Shown: piece by piece, positions 55,477 to 60,039 of the stretch
How the letters are laid out: each line of letters opens with the position of its first letter
Position numbering within the stretch: the stretch's first letter is position 1
Source of the DNA: a virus
Reading direction: 5' to 3' (one strand)
Length of the DNA stretch: 64,000 nucleotides
Virus genome (UHGV): UHGV-0125199
Made by a program: the position numbers and the translations under genes
Notes under the pieces: model-generated
Seen by the model: the letters and a program-made list of their open reading frames with translations, nothing else
Told to the model about the DNA's origin: nothing
Database searches by the model: none

Positions 55477-56024
55477 TGCTTTTCCCTATTCGTAGGTTTC
55501 CCACCTAACAAATTTCCTTCTTCGTCTCTGTCATATTTCCACATCAAATAATCACACCAATTATCATTGTTAAAATCACTCATGTTGTAAAACGGATCAG
55601 GATCATCTATAACATATTGCTTGTCAAATCCTTTAATTTTCACATTTACATCATCTACAATAACTCTTTTTGATAATCTACAAATCCATTTCATAAATTC
55701 CTGAAATGTATCTTCAAATTCTCTATCACGTAATGCACCATCAACAACAAGAATATATTCGTCTTGTGTATGTAACCAACCACGTTTATAACTTCTTCTT
55801 CCTCTTGAATCTCTTAAGTTATTTGTTCCCTCAAAAAATTCATCGCTACTGCTTGAGCTGTTATATCCTCTTTTTTGAATCACATATACTTCCATATCTC
55901 TTTCTGATCCGGTAACAACCGGAAGATGATCAAGTACTGTTTCGAGAATATATCTCTTTTCATGTTCTGTCCTACCTAGAGGAGAAACAACAATTGTCCC
56001 ATGTACATATGTCCAACTACTCAT
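55473..56024 (-). CDS. hypothetical protein
   Basis: ORF. Confidence 0.3.
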   Translation of the reverse strand: MSSWTYVHGTIVVSPLGRTEHEKRYILETVLDHLPVVTGSERDMEVYVIQKRGYNSSSSSDEFFEGTNNLRDSRGRRSYKRGWLHTQDEYILVVDGALRDREFEDTFQEFMKWICRLSKRVIVDDVNVKIKGFDKQYVIDDPDPFYNMSDFNNDNWCDYLMWKYDRDEEGNLLGGKPTNREKQ

Positions 56025-56270
56025 TTTATTTACCTCTTTTGATATTAATCACATCGGTATTTACAATCTTATATCACATGCAGCTCACAAACATTTTCAA
56101 ATAGCGACAAATGAAATAGTTTGTTGAATCAACGTTTACAGTTTCTAAATATTCGATTTACTGTAGGTGATATTTGATTATAAACACCGATGAAAATCAT
56201 ATGCAGAACTTTATGTATCTTATTTTATTGGAGGTATGAAACATGTATAGAAATTTATTCCGCATATGAA

Positions 56271-56341
56271 TTGTAGATAAAGGATTTGAACCTTTTCTTA
56301 TGCGCCACACTACATCGTGCTACCATTTACACTAATCTACA
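56271..56341 (-). other. tRNA-like element (good acceptor, D and T arms; no canonical anticodon stem), possibly a tRNA pseudogene
   Basis: Minus-strand TGTAGAT..GTGT-AAATGGTA-GCAC..AAAGG-TTCAAAT-CCTTT-ATCTACA-A. The 21-nt anticodon region cannot form a 5-bp stem. Confidence 0.25.
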
Positions 56342-56465
56342 ACTTTTAGGATATTATTATGAAAACTAGATCATTACTATTTAAGGAGAGCAATATTACT
56401 ATGAGAACCAAAAAAACAATAAAAAATATTATTTAAAATCCAATACAAAATAGTAATAACCTAAA

Positions 56466-56538
56466 TGGATCATTCGGGACTCGAACCCGAAACCGATCGG
56501 TTATGAGCCGATTGCGCTCACCATTGCGCCAATGATCC
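56466..56538 (-). tRNA. tRNA-Met(CAU) (or fMet/Ile2-lysidine); CCA not encoded
   Basis: Minus-strand cloverleaf: acceptor GGATCAT/ATGATCC, D GCGC/GCGC, anticodon stem ATCGG/CCGAT with loop CTCATAA, T stem TCGGG-TTCGAGT-CCCGA, discriminator A followed by TTT. Confidence 0.8.
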
Positions 56539-56570
56539 TTATTCTGTGCCGCTCGTAGCAGCACATTTTT

Positions 56571-56753
56571 TTAATTGAAACTTCTATAAAAATCTCCTGT
56601 TTTATCAATGCTTCTGCAAACCATAGATTCAATTTCTCGTTTCATTTCTTCGCCACATTCAGGACACATATGTCCATCTCCTGTATACTCTTTCATCGAC
56701 ATCGTGATAATTTTTTTGTGTCCACATTTTGGACATTGAAATGGATAATTCAT
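56571..56753 (-). CDS. Zn-ribbon small protein
   Basis: 'CPKCGH...CPECGEE'. Confidence 0.3.
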   Translation of the reverse strand: MNYPFQCPKCGHKKIITMSMKEYTGDGHMCPECGEEMKREIESMVCRSIDKTGDFYRSFN

Positions 56754-56772
56754 ATTATTTATTTCTCTCCTT

Positions 56773-57144
56773 TTAGCCTTCTAATTTTCTTAGTTCTGTC
56801 ATTAAATTCACTAACTCTCTATTGTTCTTATTAATTAAACGATTGATTTCTTTGATTCTATCAATACGTTCTTCTTCCTCTTTACGTTTTGAATATGCCT
56901 CCATATTAACAACGCCGACTACCTGAGCTGTAGGATTTTCGCCATATACACTCACAGGTAAAATTACTTTTACCTTTCCTAATACTCTCCTATCTTTGTT
57001 TCTTGCATTTACAACCACAAGTGTATTATTCAAATTTGCTGTTCTAAGTAATTCATATTCTTCCTTATATAATGCAAATCCATAATCTTTTTTGTTATGG
57101 TCTTCTAGTAAGTTCACAATTGCAACTAAATCACATACTGTCAT
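56773..57144 (-). CDS. hypothetical protein
   Basis: 123-aa ORF. Confidence 0.3.
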   Translation of the reverse strand: MTVCDLVAIVNLLEDHNKKDYGFALYKEEYELLRTANLNNTLVVVNARNKDRRVLGKVKVILPVSVYGENPTAQVVGVVNMEAYSKRKEEEERIDRIKEINRLINKNNRELVNLMTELRKLEG

Positions 57145-57190
57145 AGTTTTATTCTCCTTTTTAATCTAATAATTCTTTATCGATAATCTG

Positions 57191-57555
57191 TTTCCATCCT
57201 TATATTTGTATAAATTACATCTTCTTTTTCTATTTTTTATAATGCAGCTTTTCGCTCGCATTTCAATCATCATACTAATGTAAATTACATCCATTTCGTG
57301 ACGTATCTCTGATACAAAACATATAATTTCAATCCTCATACTTATGTAAACTACATCTTTATAAAAGTCTTTGGTGTTACTATTGTCTTTTATTTCAATC
57401 CTCATACTTATGTAAACTACATCGAGGTATTGAAATGGTTGACTTTGGTATCACATTATTTCAATCCTCATACTTATGTAAACTACATCCTCTCTTACAA
57501 AAATCTGCATTTTAAGCATTTCAATTTCAATCCTCATACTTATGTAAACTACATC
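57191..57555 (-). CRISPR. CRISPR-like array: four perfect 32-nt repeats (ATTTCAATCCTCATACTTATGTAAACTACATC on + strand) with 34-nt unique spacers, plus two degenerate distal repeats; lies downstream of and co-oriented with tnpB
   Basis: Perfect repeats at 57326-57357, 57392-57423, 57458-57489, 57524-57555 (period 66). Degenerate copies at 57191-57221 and 57261-57291 (3 and ~8 mismatches). Repeat contains 5-bp hairpin ATGTA-aac-TACAT. Spacers all different. Confidence 0.75.
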
Positions 57556-57762
57556 ATCAAAAATACACAAATATGACATATCTATTTTATGTAACTTACA
57601 CAATTCTAAGGTTACAAAAGCGTTATCCGTTTTCGTATATGTAAATAAATGATTACTACTCACTGATTTCTTTTATCTACTTTAGTGCGAATAAACCGTA
57701 TAACTTATGTTCACTTCATATTCGCACATGGCGGCGTTGAACCTGCAACCATGTATATGTAT
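57556..57762 (-). ncRNA. Structured non-coding scaffold between tnpB stop and the array (omega-RNA/tracr-like candidate)
   Basis: Perfect 9-bp inverted repeat GTGCGAATA...TATTCGCAC (57675-57727), second stem CATGG..CCATG, and a repeat-like segment 'ttatgtaacttacaca' (~57587-57602). Confidence 0.3.
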
Positions 57763-58062
57763 TTAAGCTATTTGCTTCTTATATTCTTTCTCTTTAGCCA
57801 TGTTCAAAATATTAATTGCAGCATTAATGTCTCTATCATGAATCGCTCCACATTCAGGACAAATCCAGCCTCTTATTTTTGTATCTTTTGTATTTACGTT
57901 CACAAAACCACATTTACTGCATGTTTGTGTTGATTTTTTATATTGTCCAATTGCAACAACCGGTACACCATATTCTTCACCTTTTCTTTTTAACAAAGTA
58001 AGAATTTCTCCCATCGCTGCATCAGATAAATTATCATTTCTCACTCTTGTTTTTCTTGACAT
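57763..58062 (-). CDS. tnpB: TnpB/Cas12-like RuvC nuclease, C-terminal part (Zn finger plus RuvC-III), separated from the N-terminal part by a frameshift
   Basis: 'CSKCG...[19 protein letters not shown]' is the canonical TnpB C-terminus. Overlaps upstream ORF by 29 nt at gtcaagAAAAAcaag. Confidence 0.75.
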   Translation of the reverse strand: MSRKTRVRNDNLSDAAMGEILTLLKRKGEEYGVPVVAIGQYKKSTQTCSKCGFVNVNTKDTKIRGWICPECGAIHDRDINAAINILNMAKEKEYKKQIA

Positions 58063-59167
58063 ACATATCTTTAACCGACAAAGTTTCTATTCCAATAAAG
58101 TCTGATCTTTTTATAACTTCTAACACCATATTCTCCATATGATATTTTCTTTGTCGTGTTACCTTTCTTTCTAATTTTGCTTTTTTAAATTTTGTTTCTA
58201 TGTATCTTTTAGAAGGCTTTAATTCAACATTTTCTTTTCTTAATTCACTTAATCTTTTCCTAAACTCAATATTGCTATACCCTTGTCTTCTGGATAATTG
58301 CCTATTTAACATCTCACGATGTTGACGAACACTTCCGTCTCTACCATTTTTGAATCTAGGATTATCATATTTTGTTCCGTCTGATAAAGTCATCAAAGTT
58401 GAAATTCCAACGTCAATTCCTATTTCTCTTTTCTCTTCTTCTACTTTCACAATCCTATAAATATCTTTCATACATAGCTGTAAAAAGTAATCGCCACAAT
58501 TATCTTTTTTTACAGTTGTTAATATTTGTTGTTTCTTATGTAAATTCACATATTCTTCAAAATTCATCATGCATGATGAATCAAACCAGACATTTTTTAG
58601 ATATCCTTTAATCCCCCTAATCTTTACCTTTCCGATTTTAGCTAAATTAAAATATGCTACATTTTTATTCTCCTCATTAAAGCTCATTTTTCTCAGAAAT
58701 TCTTGATATGTATAACTTGTTCTCGGATGTTTCTTTGAATAATATGGAGGTTTACTGTTCTCAATCGGTCTTTTAACTCCCTTTCCATTTGTTTTCTTAT
58801 TAGAATTTTCTCCACTCACTTGAGCATCCAATCGCTTCGACAAATCACACAAGAAAACTCCATTCTCACCAGACAAAGCACCCGCTGGAATCAATTTAAT
58901 GTCTTCTCTCCTACTTCTTAACACATCCAAATACTGTTTCTTTGCAATAGACTTTACATCCGGAAAATGAACAGTTTGTCCTGCATTCTTTTGGTCTGGT
59001 CTTTCAATTGTATTAACTTTATTTTCAAACATATCGTAAACAGCCATATTACACGCCTTATGTAAAGCCAAAATAATTCTATCTATTAATTCACTCTGCT
59101 CTTTATTCGGATACATTCTAAAATTGAAAGTATATACCGGTATTTTTATAACTTTTTCAACTAGCAT
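58034..59167 (-). CDS. tnpB: TnpB/Cas12-like RuvC nuclease, N-terminal part (WED/REC-like region, RuvC-I, RuvC-II)
   Basis: N-terminus 'YTFNFRMYPNKEQSELIDRIILALHKACNMAVYDMF' (TnpB 'rlyPt.eQ...fg..r.vyN'). RuvC-I 'IGIDVGIS', RuvC-II 'FIGIETLSVKDM'. AAGGAGG RBS and TTGACA upstream. Confidence 0.75.
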   Translation of the reverse strand: MLVEKVIKIPVYTFNFRMYPNKEQSELIDRIILALHKACNMAVYDMFENKVNTIERPDQKNAGQTVHFPDVKSIAKKQYLDVLRSRREDIKLIPAGALSGENGVFLCDLSKRLDAQVSGENSNKKTNGKGVKRPIENSKPPYYSKKHPRTSYTYQEFLRKMSFNEENKNVAYFNLAKIGKVKIRGIKGYLKNVWFDSSCMMNFEEYVNLHKKQQILTTVKKDNCGDYFLQLCMKDIYRIVKVEEEKREIGIDVGISTLMTLSDGTKYDNPRFKNGRDGSVRQHREMLNRQLSRRQGYSNIEFRKRLSELRKENVELKPSKRYIETKFKKAKLERKVTRQRKYHMENMVLEVIKRSDFIGIETLSVKDMYVKKNKSEK

Positions 59168-59274
59168 TTAACCAGACCTCCTTTTGCTACATTTCATACC
59201 ATATACTGTATTTTTATATCAACTAACGCACTATATAATGTGTCAAATTCCAAATGAAATCGAGATTTAATTAT

Positions 59275-60039
59275 TTAAGATTCGGTGATAAAAAACGGAC
59301 GAACACCATAATCGCCCCAAACGCAACCGCCGTAGCACACGTTACCACCACCGTAAACAACCTGAACACAGGAAGCATCTTTTCTTGATTTCGTCTGATT
59401 TGGAGTTGACAGCCAGTATGGATAATTGATTAGTGGAAGTTTTTCACCACATTTTCTGAATAAATCAAAAGTCGGAATAGACAATACATCATCTTTTACA
59501 ACACCATAATCATTAAATCCATCCATACTAAGCAAGTTATTTTCAACTGGAGTAATACTATTTCCATATTTACATTTAATGTCTTTTGCAAGCTTGCACT
59601 CTTTAAGATACTTTCTTACAGAAGATTCTGCGTAGTTATTATTGCTGCCAAAACTCATATTCGTAAGAACTCCATACATAAAATGATATATCTTTCCATA
59701 CATTCGAATGTTTGTCCAATAATATCCAAATTCCTCTTTAAAGTGCTTGTTCATAAAATCTTTAACGGATTCTCTAAATTCATCTTCATATCTCTCTGGA
59801 TCGTTACTATACCATTCTGGTACAATATCCTGATCGACTTTATAAGTCCACTTTGAAATATCGGAAGTGATAATATATTTCTCTGGCGGAATTAATTCTG
59901 CTCTCACAAATTTCTTAGAAGCATTAAATTCATTATCTTCTACATCCAATTTTTCAAGCAAACTTGAATGACTTTCATTTCCTAACGGAGCAAGTTCCAC
60001 CCTATTCTTAAAAATAATTCCACTTTTAAACTCACACAT
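59275..60039 (-). CDS. hypothetical protein
   Basis: 254-aa ORF upstream of tnpB. Confidence 0.3.
   Translation of the reverse strand: MCEFKSGIIFKNRVELAPLGNESHSSLLEKLDVEDNEFNASKKFVRAELIPPEKYIITSDISKWTYKVDQDIVPEWYSNDPERYEDEFRESVKDFMNKHFKEEFGYYWTNIRMYGKIYHFMYGVLTNMSFGSNNNYAESSVRKYLKECKLAKDIKCKYGNSITPVENNLLSMDGFNDYGVVKDDVLSIPTFDLFRKCGEKLPLINYPYWLSTPNQTKSRKDASCVQVVYGGGNVCYGGCVWGDYGVRPFFITES

What the first reader, a model, noticed from the sequence alone, without database searches (positions are those of the whole stretch)
57556..57762. Structured tracr/omega-RNA-like scaffold between tnpB and the array, containing a repeat-like segment
- Downstream of the tnpB stop (minus strand) there is a perfect 9-bp stem GTGCGAATA(25 nt loop)TATTCGCAC and a CATGG(17 nt)CCATG stem.
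- Nearer the array sits 'GTGTAAGTTACATAAAATAGATA', which resembles the repeat (GATGTAGTTTACATAAG...).
- This is what would be expected if the array repeats arose by duplication of the 3' end of a TnpB omega-RNA scaffold.
- The scaffold probably supplies the non-repeat part of the guide RNA.
Basis: partly seen in the sequence, partly recalled or inferred. Interest (0 to 1): 0.55.

Follow-up and report, generated by a model that had tools for sequence, protein, structure and literature searches.

The report
Phage TnpB-derived tracrRNA beside CRISPR array
The 200 bases between a phage's TnpB-like nuclease gene and its small CRISPR array most likely encode a conserved, folded helper RNA (a tracrRNA descended from a transposon guide RNA) that pairs with every repeat of the array; it belongs to the recently described "TranC" transposon-to-CRISPR intermediates, and here the array is aimed at rival phages.

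Summary
**Observation.** Confirmed. Both stems and the repeat-like segment are at the stated places.

**What it is.**
- The region (minus strand, 57752→57589) is a conserved structured RNA scaffold found next to homologous effector genes in about 45 gut phage and metagenome loci.
- On 22 sequences, 45 proposed pairs are 95% paired, against 33-45% for slid controls. Sixteen pairs show compensatory changes.
- The "repeat-like" segment is really an anti-repeat. It looks repeat-like only because it is nearly palindromic here.
- The P1 loop (UUCAA) pairs with the repeat's 3' tail (UUGAA). This pairing covaries across clades.

**Family.** The effector is a homologue of LaTranC (PDB 9jfo, E = 2e-66). 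A covariance model of P1+P2 finds the same module beside LaTranC-clade genes.

**Function.** Three of the five window spacers match ~40-kb phages: two at 34/34 with a 5'-TTC flank, the third at 31-32/34 with TTT. This fixes the guide orientation.

**Verdict.** This is a tracrRNA of a TranC-type system, so a new member of a known kind. No expression data exist.

**Extras.**
- The effector gene is naturally split into two conserved ORFs.
- The repeat and the leader end resemble type I-C arrays.

The parts
58034..59167 (-). Effector ORF 1 (377 aa): N-terminal part of a TnpB/TranC-like nuclease (WED/REC, RuvC-I 'GIDVG', RuvC-II 'GIETL')
   Evidence: Pfam OrfB_IS605, E = 3.8e-13. The merged protein hits NCBIfam guided_TnpB at 192 bits and LaTranC 9jfo at E = 1.8e-66. 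dN/dS is 0.07 against 89%-identical relatives.
57763..58062 (-). Effector ORF 2 (99 aa), in the +1 frame and overlapping ORF 1 by 29 nt: Zn-finger TNB domain plus RuvC-III 'HDRDINAA'
   Evidence: Pfam Cas12f1-like_TNB, E = 8.7e-21. The same split occurs in three clades with different junctions. dN/dS is 0.04-0.07.
57727..57753 (-). Its loop GUUCAA (57737-57742) pairs with the repeat tail UUGAA as a pseudoknot
   Evidence: The closing pair covaries (UA 13, CG 4, GC 1, GU 1, UG 1). The stem changes to GGUGGG/CCCACC in L026. Loop and tail covary: UUCAA/UUGAA, CACAA/UUGUG, CCCAA/UUGGG, UCUG/CAGA. Conservation starts here in units that stand alone without a gene upstream.
57685..57727 (-).
   Evidence: 96% of cells are paired, with CG->UG and GC->AU changes. 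The sequence is kept in relatives down to 33% protein identity. It is absent in L114, L091 and L096 and shortened in L010, so it is dispensable in some lineages.
57614..57683 (-). Conserved AAAGUAG (57677-57683), then P3 (AUAAAAG 57670-57676 with CUUUUGU 57614-57620) enclosing a variable stem-loop (candidate 57641-57663). A GAAAA block nearby may form the triplex described for TranC/TnpB guide RNAs
   Evidence: P3 covaries: AU 13 / GC 9 and UA 18 / CG 3. Across clades: AUAUGAG/CUCAUAU, GCCAAAG/CUUUGGC, GCAUAAG/CUUAUGC. The triplex is inference only.
57589..57611 (-). Anti-repeat: AR1 CCUUA (57607-57611) pairs with repeat UGAGG; AR2 GUGUAAGUUACAU (57589-57601) pairs with repeat nt 2-14
   Evidence: AR1: AU 11 / UA 10 at one pair. 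AR2: 13 pairs, 7 with compensatory changes, 92% paired. Clear reverse complements are seen in L010, L014 and L107.
57556..57588 (-). Conserved 33-nt linker / leader end (..UCAUAUUUGUGUAUUUUUGAU) directly upstream of repeat 1. It could be the loop of a cis tracr-crRNA hairpin, the array leader with an integration site, or both
   Evidence: The sequence is conserved across clades. Its end TTTGCT|G resembles the type I-C leader-repeat junctions of B. halodurans (PMC6519985) and of L197 and L239. No consensus promoter or terminator was found.
57190..57555 (-). CRISPR array: 6 repeats of 32 nt (57524-55, 57458-89, 57392-423, 57326-57, then degenerate 57260-91 and 57190-221) and 5 spacers (four of 34 nt, one of 38 nt)
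   Evidence: Spacer content differs between near-identical phages. Spacers S1 and S2 match other phages 34/34 and S4 31-32/34. The 5' flanks are TTC, TTC and TTT.

Best explanation
The region most likely encodes the tracrRNA of a phage-borne TranC-type (TnpB-to-Cas12 intermediate) system.

**RNA and fold.** An RNA of about 165 nt is read from the minus strand, starting near 57752. It folds into three helices:
- P1, a hairpin.
- P2, the 9-bp stem.
- P3, which encloses a variable stem-loop.

It ends in a single-stranded anti-repeat.

**Pairing with each repeat.** Every 32-nt repeat of the array transcript pairs with this RNA in three places:
- Repeat nt 2-14 pair with AR2.
- UGAGG pairs with AR1.
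- The 3' tail UUGAA pairs with the P1 loop, forming a pseudoknot.

Together these rebuild an omega-RNA-like scaffold with the spacer as its 3' guide.

**Effector and target.** The two-piece nuclease (ORF 1 carries RuvC-I and RuvC-II; ORF 2 carries the Zn finger and RuvC-III) binds this RNA. It attacks DNA carrying a 5'-TTC motif followed by the spacer sequence. The targets are co-occurring ~40-kb phages.

**Shown:** the structure and its covariation, the anti-repeat, homology to the LaTranC clade, spacer matches and PAM, and purifying selection on both ORFs.

**Inferred:** transcription start and end, whether the tracrRNA and array form one transcript, how the RNA is processed, and that cleavage takes place.
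For: **Conserved layout**
- The order gene, scaffold, array is kept in phage loci from 98% down to 33% protein identity. Spacers differ between loci.

**RNA structure**
- RNAalifold and pair counting on 22 sequences give 45 pairs with 95.4% of cells paired, against 33-45% when partners are slid.
- 16 pairs carry compensatory changes, and 0 of 500 shuffles reach the observed values.
- Covariation of the pseudoknot and of P3 extends across clades.
- The fold z-score is -3.6 on the minus strand and -1.8 on the plus strand.

**Family membership**
- The effector is a homologue of LaTranC (9jfo), E = 1.8e-66.
- Covariance model R1 (P1+P2) scores 101.8 bits in the window and 60-72 bits in L026-L028.
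- R1 scores 38.5 and 32.6 bits (E = 6e-7 and 2e-5) beside genes 60% identical to LaTranC.

**Function**
- Spacers S1 and S2 match IMG/VR phages 34/34, and S4 matches 31-32/34 with its mismatches at positions 26 onwards, the end far from the PAM.
- Four of five distinct protospacers, counting two from sibling phage L002, carry a 5' TTC. This equals the LaTranC PAM (bioRxiv 10.1101/2025.09.28.678669).
- dN/dS is 0.04-0.08 on both ORFs.
Against: - No transcript data are available.
- The simple scans found no promoter or terminator in the region.
- Rfam has no matching family.
- P2 is missing in some array-bearing relatives such as L114, so it is not essential everywhere.
- The single-sequence minimum-energy fold of the window chooses a different pairing for the P3 region.
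- The repeat also resembles type I-C repeats and keeps a weak hairpin of its own. The crRNAs could therefore also, or instead, be used by a host Cascade complex.
Confidence: 0.8

Rival explanations
1. The region is only the leader and promoter of a type I-C-like mini-array. The phage keeps the array so that the host's type I-C Cascade/Cas3 uses its crRNAs against rival phages. The nuclease gene next door is unrelated to the array.
For: - The repeat is 32 nt and ends GGATTGAAAT, as do the B. halodurans and Roseburia hominis type I-C repeats.
- The hairpin register and the TACAT loop are the same as in type I-C repeats.
- The leader end TTTGCT resembles type I-C junctions.
- Spacers are 34 nt and the PAM is TTC, both typical of type I-C (PMC6519985).
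- No adaptation genes lie nearby.
Against: - Helices P1, P2 and P3 covary, and a leader needs no such fold.
- The anti-repeat and the P1 loop co-vary with the repeat. This includes clades whose repeats are not type I-C-like: L026, L027, L032 and L262.
- The same scaffold sits beside TranC homologues in every clade.
- Orphan scaffolds carry a single guide and no array.

Dual use by both systems is not excluded.
Confidence: 0.1
2. The locus is a decaying relic. The tnpB gene is frameshifted, so the scaffold and array are leftovers without function.
For: - The effector reading frame is broken at 58034-58062.
- The two repeats farthest from the scaffold are degenerate.
Against: - The split recurs in three clades with different junctions but the same ORF 2 start, MS(R/K)KTR.
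- Both ORFs show dN/dS of 0.04-0.08 at dS of about 0.6-0.75.
- All catalytic and Zn-finger residues are intact.
- Spacers turn over between 98%-identical phages, and two match present-day phages 34/34.
Confidence: 0.05
3. The region is an ordinary omega-RNA at the right end of a mobile IS200/IS605 element (or simply the 3' UTR and terminator of tnpB), and the array happens to lie next to it.
For: - The protein scores as guided_TnpB.
- The P1/pseudoknot/P2 layout is omega-RNA-like.
- Orphan copies keep the last 9 nt of the gene, which suggests past duplication or mobility.
Against: - The scaffold starts 10 nt after the stop codon, not inside the ORF.
- No TnpA or other transposase family was found in the neighbouring ORFs.
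- Scaffold and array co-occur over the whole family.
- In the window the scaffold ends in an anti-repeat rather than at a guide.
- No terminator was found.
Confidence: 0.05

Closest known systems
LaTranC and other TranC systems (transposon-CRISPR intermediates; Jin et al., Cell 2025;188:6283, doi 10.1016/j.cell.2025.09.004; PDB 9jfo/9jfp/9jfq)
   Same: - The effector is TnpB-sized (466 aa when the two ORFs are merged) and homologous to LaTranC (E = 2e-66).
- The array is short, with 32-nt repeats, and has no adaptation genes beside it.
- The tracrRNA lies between effector and array.
- The PAM is 5'-TTC.
- The P1-P2 scaffold module is detected beside LaTranC-clade genes.
- The model of an omega/reRNA split into tracrRNA and crRNA fits.
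   Different: - This is a separate clade. The window protein did not bring up LaTranC among its best 120 hits.
- The effector is split into two ORFs.
- The repeat tail and leader end are type I-C-like, whereas LaTranC-clade repeats end GGAGCAGAAG.
- The system is carried by 90-165-kb gut phages.
- LaTranC's own RNA could not be compared directly.
TnpB omega-RNA / reRNA of IS200/IS605 elements (e.g. ISDra2; PDB 8h1j, 8bf8)
   Same: - The scaffold lies 3' of the nuclease gene on the same strand.
- A pseudoknot joins a 5' hairpin loop to the segment just before the guide.
- The guide lies 3' of the scaffold.
- Orphan relatives (L091, L096, L119) are single-guide RNAs of this kind.
   Different: - In the window the RNA does not overlap the ORF.
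- It ends in an anti-repeat, and the guide-proximal part is supplied in trans by array repeats.
- No TnpA gene or IS ends were found.
- No Rfam family matches.
Cas12f (type V-F) tracrRNA:crRNA
   Same: - A miniature TnpB-derived effector uses a long structured tracrRNA encoded between the gene and the array.
- The repeat:anti-repeat duplex is formed in two segments.
   Different: - Cas12f loci usually carry cas1, cas2 and cas4.
- There is no significant sequence-model match here. The only type V model hit, C2c8, scores 77 bits against a cut-off of 350.
Type I-C CRISPR arrays (B. halodurans, Roseburia hominis)
   Same: - 32-33-nt repeat ending (G)TGGATTGAAAT.
- The same register: 3 nt, 6-bp stem, 5-nt loop, 6-bp stem, 1 nt, 11-nt handle.
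- 34-nt spacers.
- TTC PAM.
- Leader end TT(T/C)GCT.
   Different: - No Cascade or cas3 genes are present.
- The repeat stem is AT-rich and imperfect.
- The repeat co-varies with a tracrRNA, which type I systems do not use.

Membership tests
TranC (TnpB-derived CRISPR-like system) guide RNA / tracrRNA | Effector homologous to TnpB and to a characterised TranC | tested here: met
   NCBIfam guided_TnpB scores 192 bits against a cut-off of 100. phmmer against PDB gives LaTranC 9jfo at E = 1.8e-66, with the RuvC D/E/D residues and the Zn finger aligned.
TranC (TnpB-derived CRISPR-like system) guide RNA / tracrRNA | CRISPR array beside the effector, with spacers that vary between relatives | tested here: met
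   The window has 6 repeats and 5 spacers. Spacers differ in 89-98%-identical phages. Arrays are present in all clades examined.
TranC (TnpB-derived CRISPR-like system) guide RNA / tracrRNA | Non-coding scaffold with an anti-repeat complementary to the repeat (omega/reRNA split into tracrRNA and crRNA) | tested here: met
   Helices 5 and 6 comprise 18 pairs, about 92% paired, and 9 of them show compensatory changes.
TranC (TnpB-derived CRISPR-like system) guide RNA / tracrRNA | Scaffold homologous to that of the characterised LaTranC clade | tested here: met
   Covariance model R1 (P1+P2) hits downstream of genes 60% identical to LaTranC: L262 at 38.5 bits (E = 6e-7) and L263 at 32.6 bits.
TranC (TnpB-derived CRISPR-like system) guide RNA / tracrRNA | 5' PAM/TAM next to targets, with the guide 3' of the repeat | tested here: met
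   Protospacer 5' flanks are TTTTC, TTTTC, ATTC, TTTTC and ATTT. The LaTranC PAM is 5'-TTC (bioRxiv 10.1101/2025.09.28.678669).
TranC (TnpB-derived CRISPR-like system) guide RNA / tracrRNA | The RNA is expressed, binds the effector and is needed for DNA cleavage | not testable with these tools
   This needs RNA-seq and biochemistry.
IS200/IS605 TnpB omega-RNA | RNA overlaps the 3' end of tnpB and ends at the transposon right end, with the flanking DNA as its single guide | tested here: not met
   The scaffold starts at 57752, 10 nt after the stop codon (57763-57765), and is followed by an anti-repeat and an array. Some orphan relatives do have a single guide.
IS200/IS605 TnpB omega-RNA | Association with TnpA or IS ends | tested here: not met
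   No transposase family was found in the five neighbouring ORFs scanned, which lie within about 3 kb of the effector gene. IS ends were not searched for specifically.
Type V CRISPR-Cas (Cas12f, C2c8 and similar) | Match to a curated Cas12 subtype model, and adaptation genes nearby | tested here: not met
   V_cas_c2c8 scores 77 bits against a cut-off of 350. No Cas1, Cas2 or Cas4 domains were found in the adjacent ORFs. The rest of the window was not scanned.
Type I-C CRISPR array | Repeat of the type I-C family (32-33 nt, hairpin plus the 11-nt handle ..TGGATTGAAAT) | tested here: inconclusive
   Identity to the B. halodurans repeat is 21/32 for the window repeat and 23/32 for L010b, in the same register (hand alignment against the repeat). 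The stem is AT-rich and imperfect. No statistical test was made.
Type I-C CRISPR array | Cascade/Cas3 genes (cas3, cas5c, cas8c, cas7) beside the array | tested here: not met
   None were found among the ORFs scanned around the array.
Any Rfam family | Covariance-model match | tested here: not met
   cmscan of 56000-59500 at E <= 10 returned only two tRNAs and chance hits, and nothing in 57556-57762.

The most novel reading that the evidence does not exclude
The locus may be a class 1 / class 2 chimera carried by phages.
- The array (repeat plus leader end) would be a captured or imitated type I-C array.
- The host's type I-C Cas1-Cas2-Cas4 could then load TTC-flanked spacers into it in trans.
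- A transposon-derived tracrRNA would adapt those type I-C-style crRNAs to a two-subunit (naturally split) TnpB-like nuclease that shares the TTC motif.

If so, TnpB would have gained CRISPR arrays by matching its omega-RNA 3' end (GGAUUGAAAU) to an existing repeat handle, rather than only by duplicating its own RNA end.
Probability: 0.3. Interest if true: 0.8.

Novelty: new member of a known kind. Interest (0 to 1): 0.55.

Why it matters
TranC systems are the proposed stepping stones from transposon TnpB to Cas12, and few of their guide RNAs have been defined.

This locus and its relatives offer:
- **A comparative structure.** The tracrRNA structure, including its pseudoknot, is backed by covariation.
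- **A natural series.** The relatives include single-guide, split-guide, multi-array and nuclease-dead forms.
- **Real targets.** Spacer matches show phage-against-phage use.

The scaffold definition could be used directly to design single-guide RNAs for a compact nuclease. The naturally split effector and the type I-C-like array raise testable questions about how arrays were acquired and how spacers are loaded without adaptation genes.

Tried and rejected
**Searches that found nothing useful**
- Rfam scan of 56000-59500: nothing in the region.
- INPHARED phage search with the locus: only a 71-nt transposase match.
- INPHARED search with the concatenated spacers: no match.
- Genome-contig scan with the protein alignment: only distant Poribacteria TnpBs.
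- Plasmid search for a type I-C repeat: no match.
- Promoter and terminator scan: counts no different from shuffled sequence.
- Exact scan for spacer S3 in IMG/VR: no match.
- LaTranC itself is not in the protein collection. The best hit is 61% identical, so I used clade relatives instead.
- The Cell 2025 paper is not held in the library. TranC facts are taken from papers that cite it.

**Ideas considered and rejected**
- *The frame break is a 4-nt duplication or a sequencing error.* Rejected, because the same break is conserved in relatives.
- *The frame break is a programmed +1 frameshift at AAA-UGA.* Judged unlikely, because clade c has a different frame relation (an ATGA overlap) with the same ORF 2 start.
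- *A long-range helix GGUUG/YAACC replaces P1.* Rejected, because P1 has a covarying closing pair and changes to GGUGGG/CCCACC in L026, where no matching YAACC partner is evident by eye in the region shown.
- *The CATGG/CCATG stem is not conserved.* This was my first impression. I revised it, because the inner three pairs covary.

Full report
**1. The observation**

All features are on the minus strand of the window.
- The 9-bp stem is GTGCGAATA (57719-57727) paired with TATTCGCAC (57685-57693).
- The second stem is CATGG (57749-57753) paired with CCATG (57727-57731).
- The segment GTGTAAGTTACATAAAATAGATA lies at 57579-57601.

The interval 57556-57762 is exactly the non-coding stretch between the stop codon of a TnpB-like gene (TAA, 57763-57765) and the first repeat (57524-57555). 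The array has six 32-nt repeats. The two farthest from the gene are degenerate.

The minus-strand RNA 57524-57752 folds at -57.3 kcal/mol, with z = -3.6 and 0 of 200 shuffles as good. The plus strand gives z = -1.8.

**2. Surroundings**

The gene is read as two ORFs.
- ORF 1 is 59167..58034 (377 aa, Pfam OrfB_IS605).
- ORF 2 is 58062..57763 (99 aa, Cas12f1-like TNB domain).

When merged, the protein scores as guided_TnpB (192 bits). Its best solved relative is LaTranC (9jfo, E = 1.8e-66), with the catalytic D/E/D residues and the Zn finger aligned. TranC is the "transposon-CRISPR intermediate" class of Jin et al., Cell 2025. I could read about it only through citing papers: PMC13565253 and bioRxiv 10.1101/2025.09.28.678669 and 10.64898/2026.03.27.714800.

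**3. Related loci**

I used protein searches, a scan for the invariant 20-mer GTTGYAGGTTCAACGCCGCC, and look-ups of contigs. These gave about 45 copies of the scaffold in IMG/VR phage contigs (90-165 kb) and human-gut metagenomes.
- In all of these where the gene is present, the order is gene, scaffold, array.
- Spacers differ even between phages whose effector is 98% identical.
- Deeper relatives (33-40% protein identity: L026, L027, L028, L032) and relatives of LaTranC (L262, L263) have the same arrangement.

**4. Structure**

I aligned 22 scaffolds through the first repeat (A3). RNAalifold and pair counting of an explicit structure gave these results:
- 45 pairs, with 95.4% of cells paired, against 33-45% when partners are slid by 1-3 columns.
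- 16 pairs with changes on both sides.
- 0 of 500 shuffles reach the observed values.

The helices are:
- **P1.** N-GGU.GC.G[GUUCAA]C.GC.GCC-N'.
- **P2.** It shows CG->UG changes that work only on this strand.
- **P3.** RYAAAAG/CUUUURY around a variable stem-loop.
- **Two repeat:anti-repeat segments.** CC[AU]N pairs with N[UA]GG, and a 13-bp duplex follows.

Across clades:
- P3 changes to AUAUGAG/CUCAUAU, GCCAAAG/CUUUGGC and GCAUAAG/CUUAUGC.
- The P1 loop stays complementary to the repeat's 3' tail: UUCAA/UUGAA, CACAA/UUGUG, CCCAA/UUGGG and UCUG/CAGA. This supports a pseudoknot like that of TnpB omega-RNAs.

A covariance model of P1+P2 (R1) gives these scores:

| Locus | Bits | E-value |
|---|---|---|
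| Window | 101.8 | 1.1e-22 |
| L026-L028 | 60-72 | 3e-12 to 3e-15 |
| L262 (LaTranC-clade relative) | 38.5 | 6e-7 |
| L263 (LaTranC-clade relative) | 32.6 | 2e-5 |

Scaffold units that stand alone, without a gene upstream, begin their conservation at the same base as window 57752. The RNA therefore does not need the ORF.

**5. The repeat-like segment is an anti-repeat**
- In L010 the repeat begins GATGCAATCTACAT, and the scaffold carries ATGTAAATTGCAT.
- In L014 the match is 12/12 as a reverse complement.
- In L107 almost the whole repeat except its last 8 nt is complementary.

In the window the segment is nearly palindromic (GUGUAAGUUACAU). It therefore resembles the repeat and also pairs with it over 13 bp, three of them G-U.

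**6. Function**
- Exact scans of IMG/VR found spacers S1 and S2 at 34/34 in two ~40-kb phage contigs.
- S4 matched at 31-32/34 in five contigs of the same group, with mismatches at positions 26 onwards, the end far from the PAM.
- Two spacers of a sibling phage hit the same group.
- The 5' flanks are TTTTC, TTTTC, ATTC, TTTTC and ATTT. This is a TTC/TTY motif, the PAM reported for LaTranC.

These matches fix the crRNA as repeat-then-spacer on the minus strand. They also indicate phage-against-phage targeting.

Both ORFs are under purifying selection: dN/dS is 0.04-0.08 at dS of about 0.6-0.75.

**7. Mechanism proposed**

The tracrRNA (about 57752→57589) pairs with each repeat in three places. 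This rebuilds an omega-RNA-like scaffold whose 3' guide is the spacer. The two-piece nuclease then cuts TTC-flanked targets.

Not shown:
- The transcript ends.
- Whether the tracrRNA and array form one transcript. The anti-repeat lies only 33 nt before repeat 1, so the first unit could fold in cis as a natural single guide.
- How the RNA is processed.

The 33-nt linker is conserved. It may be the array leader.

**8. Rivals**
- *Leader only, or use by a type I-C Cascade.* This is made plausible by the type I-C-like repeat, leader end, spacer length and PAM. It does not explain the covarying fold or the scaffold's presence in clades whose repeats are not type I-C-like.
- *A decaying relic.* Contradicted by the selection analysis and the conserved split.
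- *An ordinary omega-RNA or 3' UTR.* Contradicted by the anti-repeat, the constant array association and the lack of transposase genes.

**9. Comparison and novelty**

The RNA works like the tracrRNA of TranC and Cas12f systems, and it is homologous to the LaTranC-clade scaffold. It is not a classical omega-RNA, because it does not overlap the ORF and has no single flanking guide. It is not a curated Cas12 subtype, and it is not in Rfam. I file it as a new member of the TranC kind.

The split effector, a nuclease-dead sister clade with several scaffold-array units, orphan single-guide copies, and the type I-C-like array go beyond what I could find described. They are listed separately.

Noticed in passing
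window 57763-59167 (-): The effector is encoded as two overlapping ORFs of 377 aa and 99 aa, in different frames. The same split occurs in three clades with different junctions: the window/L004 type, the L024 type, and L014/L025 with an ATGA overlap. ORF 2 always starts MS(R/K)KTR. Both halves are under purifying selection. This looks like a natural two-subunit TnpB/Cas12-like nuclease, with RuvC-I and RuvC-II on one chain and RuvC-III plus the Zn finger on the other.
   Followed up: partly
L010-L013, L110, L121, L123, L128, L133 (metagenome/phage loci): A sister clade (60% identity, 440-448 aa) has lost the RuvC-I Asp (to R/H), the RuvC-III Asp (to A/T) and the Zn finger. It still carries two or three scaffold-plus-array units per locus, each with an anti-repeat matched to its own repeat variant. 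One spacer (L102) matches a non-coding stretch about 800 nt downstream of the gene in the same phage group. This could be a nuclease-dead, guide-RNA-directed regulator in phages.
   Followed up: partly
L091:7882-8018, L096:1533-1642, L119:9040-9126, L120: Orphan scaffolds with one guide and no array or effector gene beside them. In L091 the anti-repeat hairpin is fused to GAGGAUUGAAAU. In L096 that stem is deleted. L119 is a minimal form of about 90 nt. L091 and L096 keep the last 9 nt of the effector ORF upstream, so they derive from a duplication of the locus end. Whether they are ancestral omega-RNAs or deletion derivatives is open.
   Followed up: partly
window 57190-57588 (-): The repeat (GAT-GTAGTT-TACAT-AAGTAT-G-AGGATTGAAAT) and the leader end (..TATTTTTGAT; TTTGCT in relatives) resemble type I-C arrays such as B. 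halodurans GATTTTCGCT|GTCGCACTCTTCATGGGTGCGTGGATTGAAAT. The repeat length, spacer length and TTC PAM are also the same. Host type I-C adaptation proteins may load spacers into this array.
   Followed up: partly
window 56270-56342 (-) and 56466-56538 (-): Two tRNA genes lie downstream of the array. One is tRNA-Met (70 bits). The other is tRNA-like (47 bits) with an abnormal anticodon loop, which ARAGORN reports as 'anticodon (gt)'.
   Followed up: no
window 57703-57722 (-), P2 loop: The P2 loop carries a motif (AAGUnAnCAUAA..) conserved from the window to relatives at 36-40% protein identity. The repeat finder flagged it as repeat-like. It may be a protein or tertiary contact.
   Followed up: no
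L027:3945-4140, L028:3969-4150: In these relatives the scaffold ends with an omega-RNA-like CGAATTGAAAT plus about 20 nt. Only then does an array start, and its repeats end GAATTGTGAG. The P1 loop there (CACAA) matches the array tail, not the scaffold's own end.
   Followed up: no
L262:2501-4146: A LaTranC-clade gene is called as a 449-aa ORF plus an overlapping 99-aa ORF, whereas its relatives are single proteins of 531-533 aa. This may be another split or a frameshift.
   Followed up: no
window 57222-57259 (-): The oldest spacer is 38 nt rather than 34 nt. It is flanked by the two degenerate repeats, which fits decay at the trailer end of the array.
   Followed up: no
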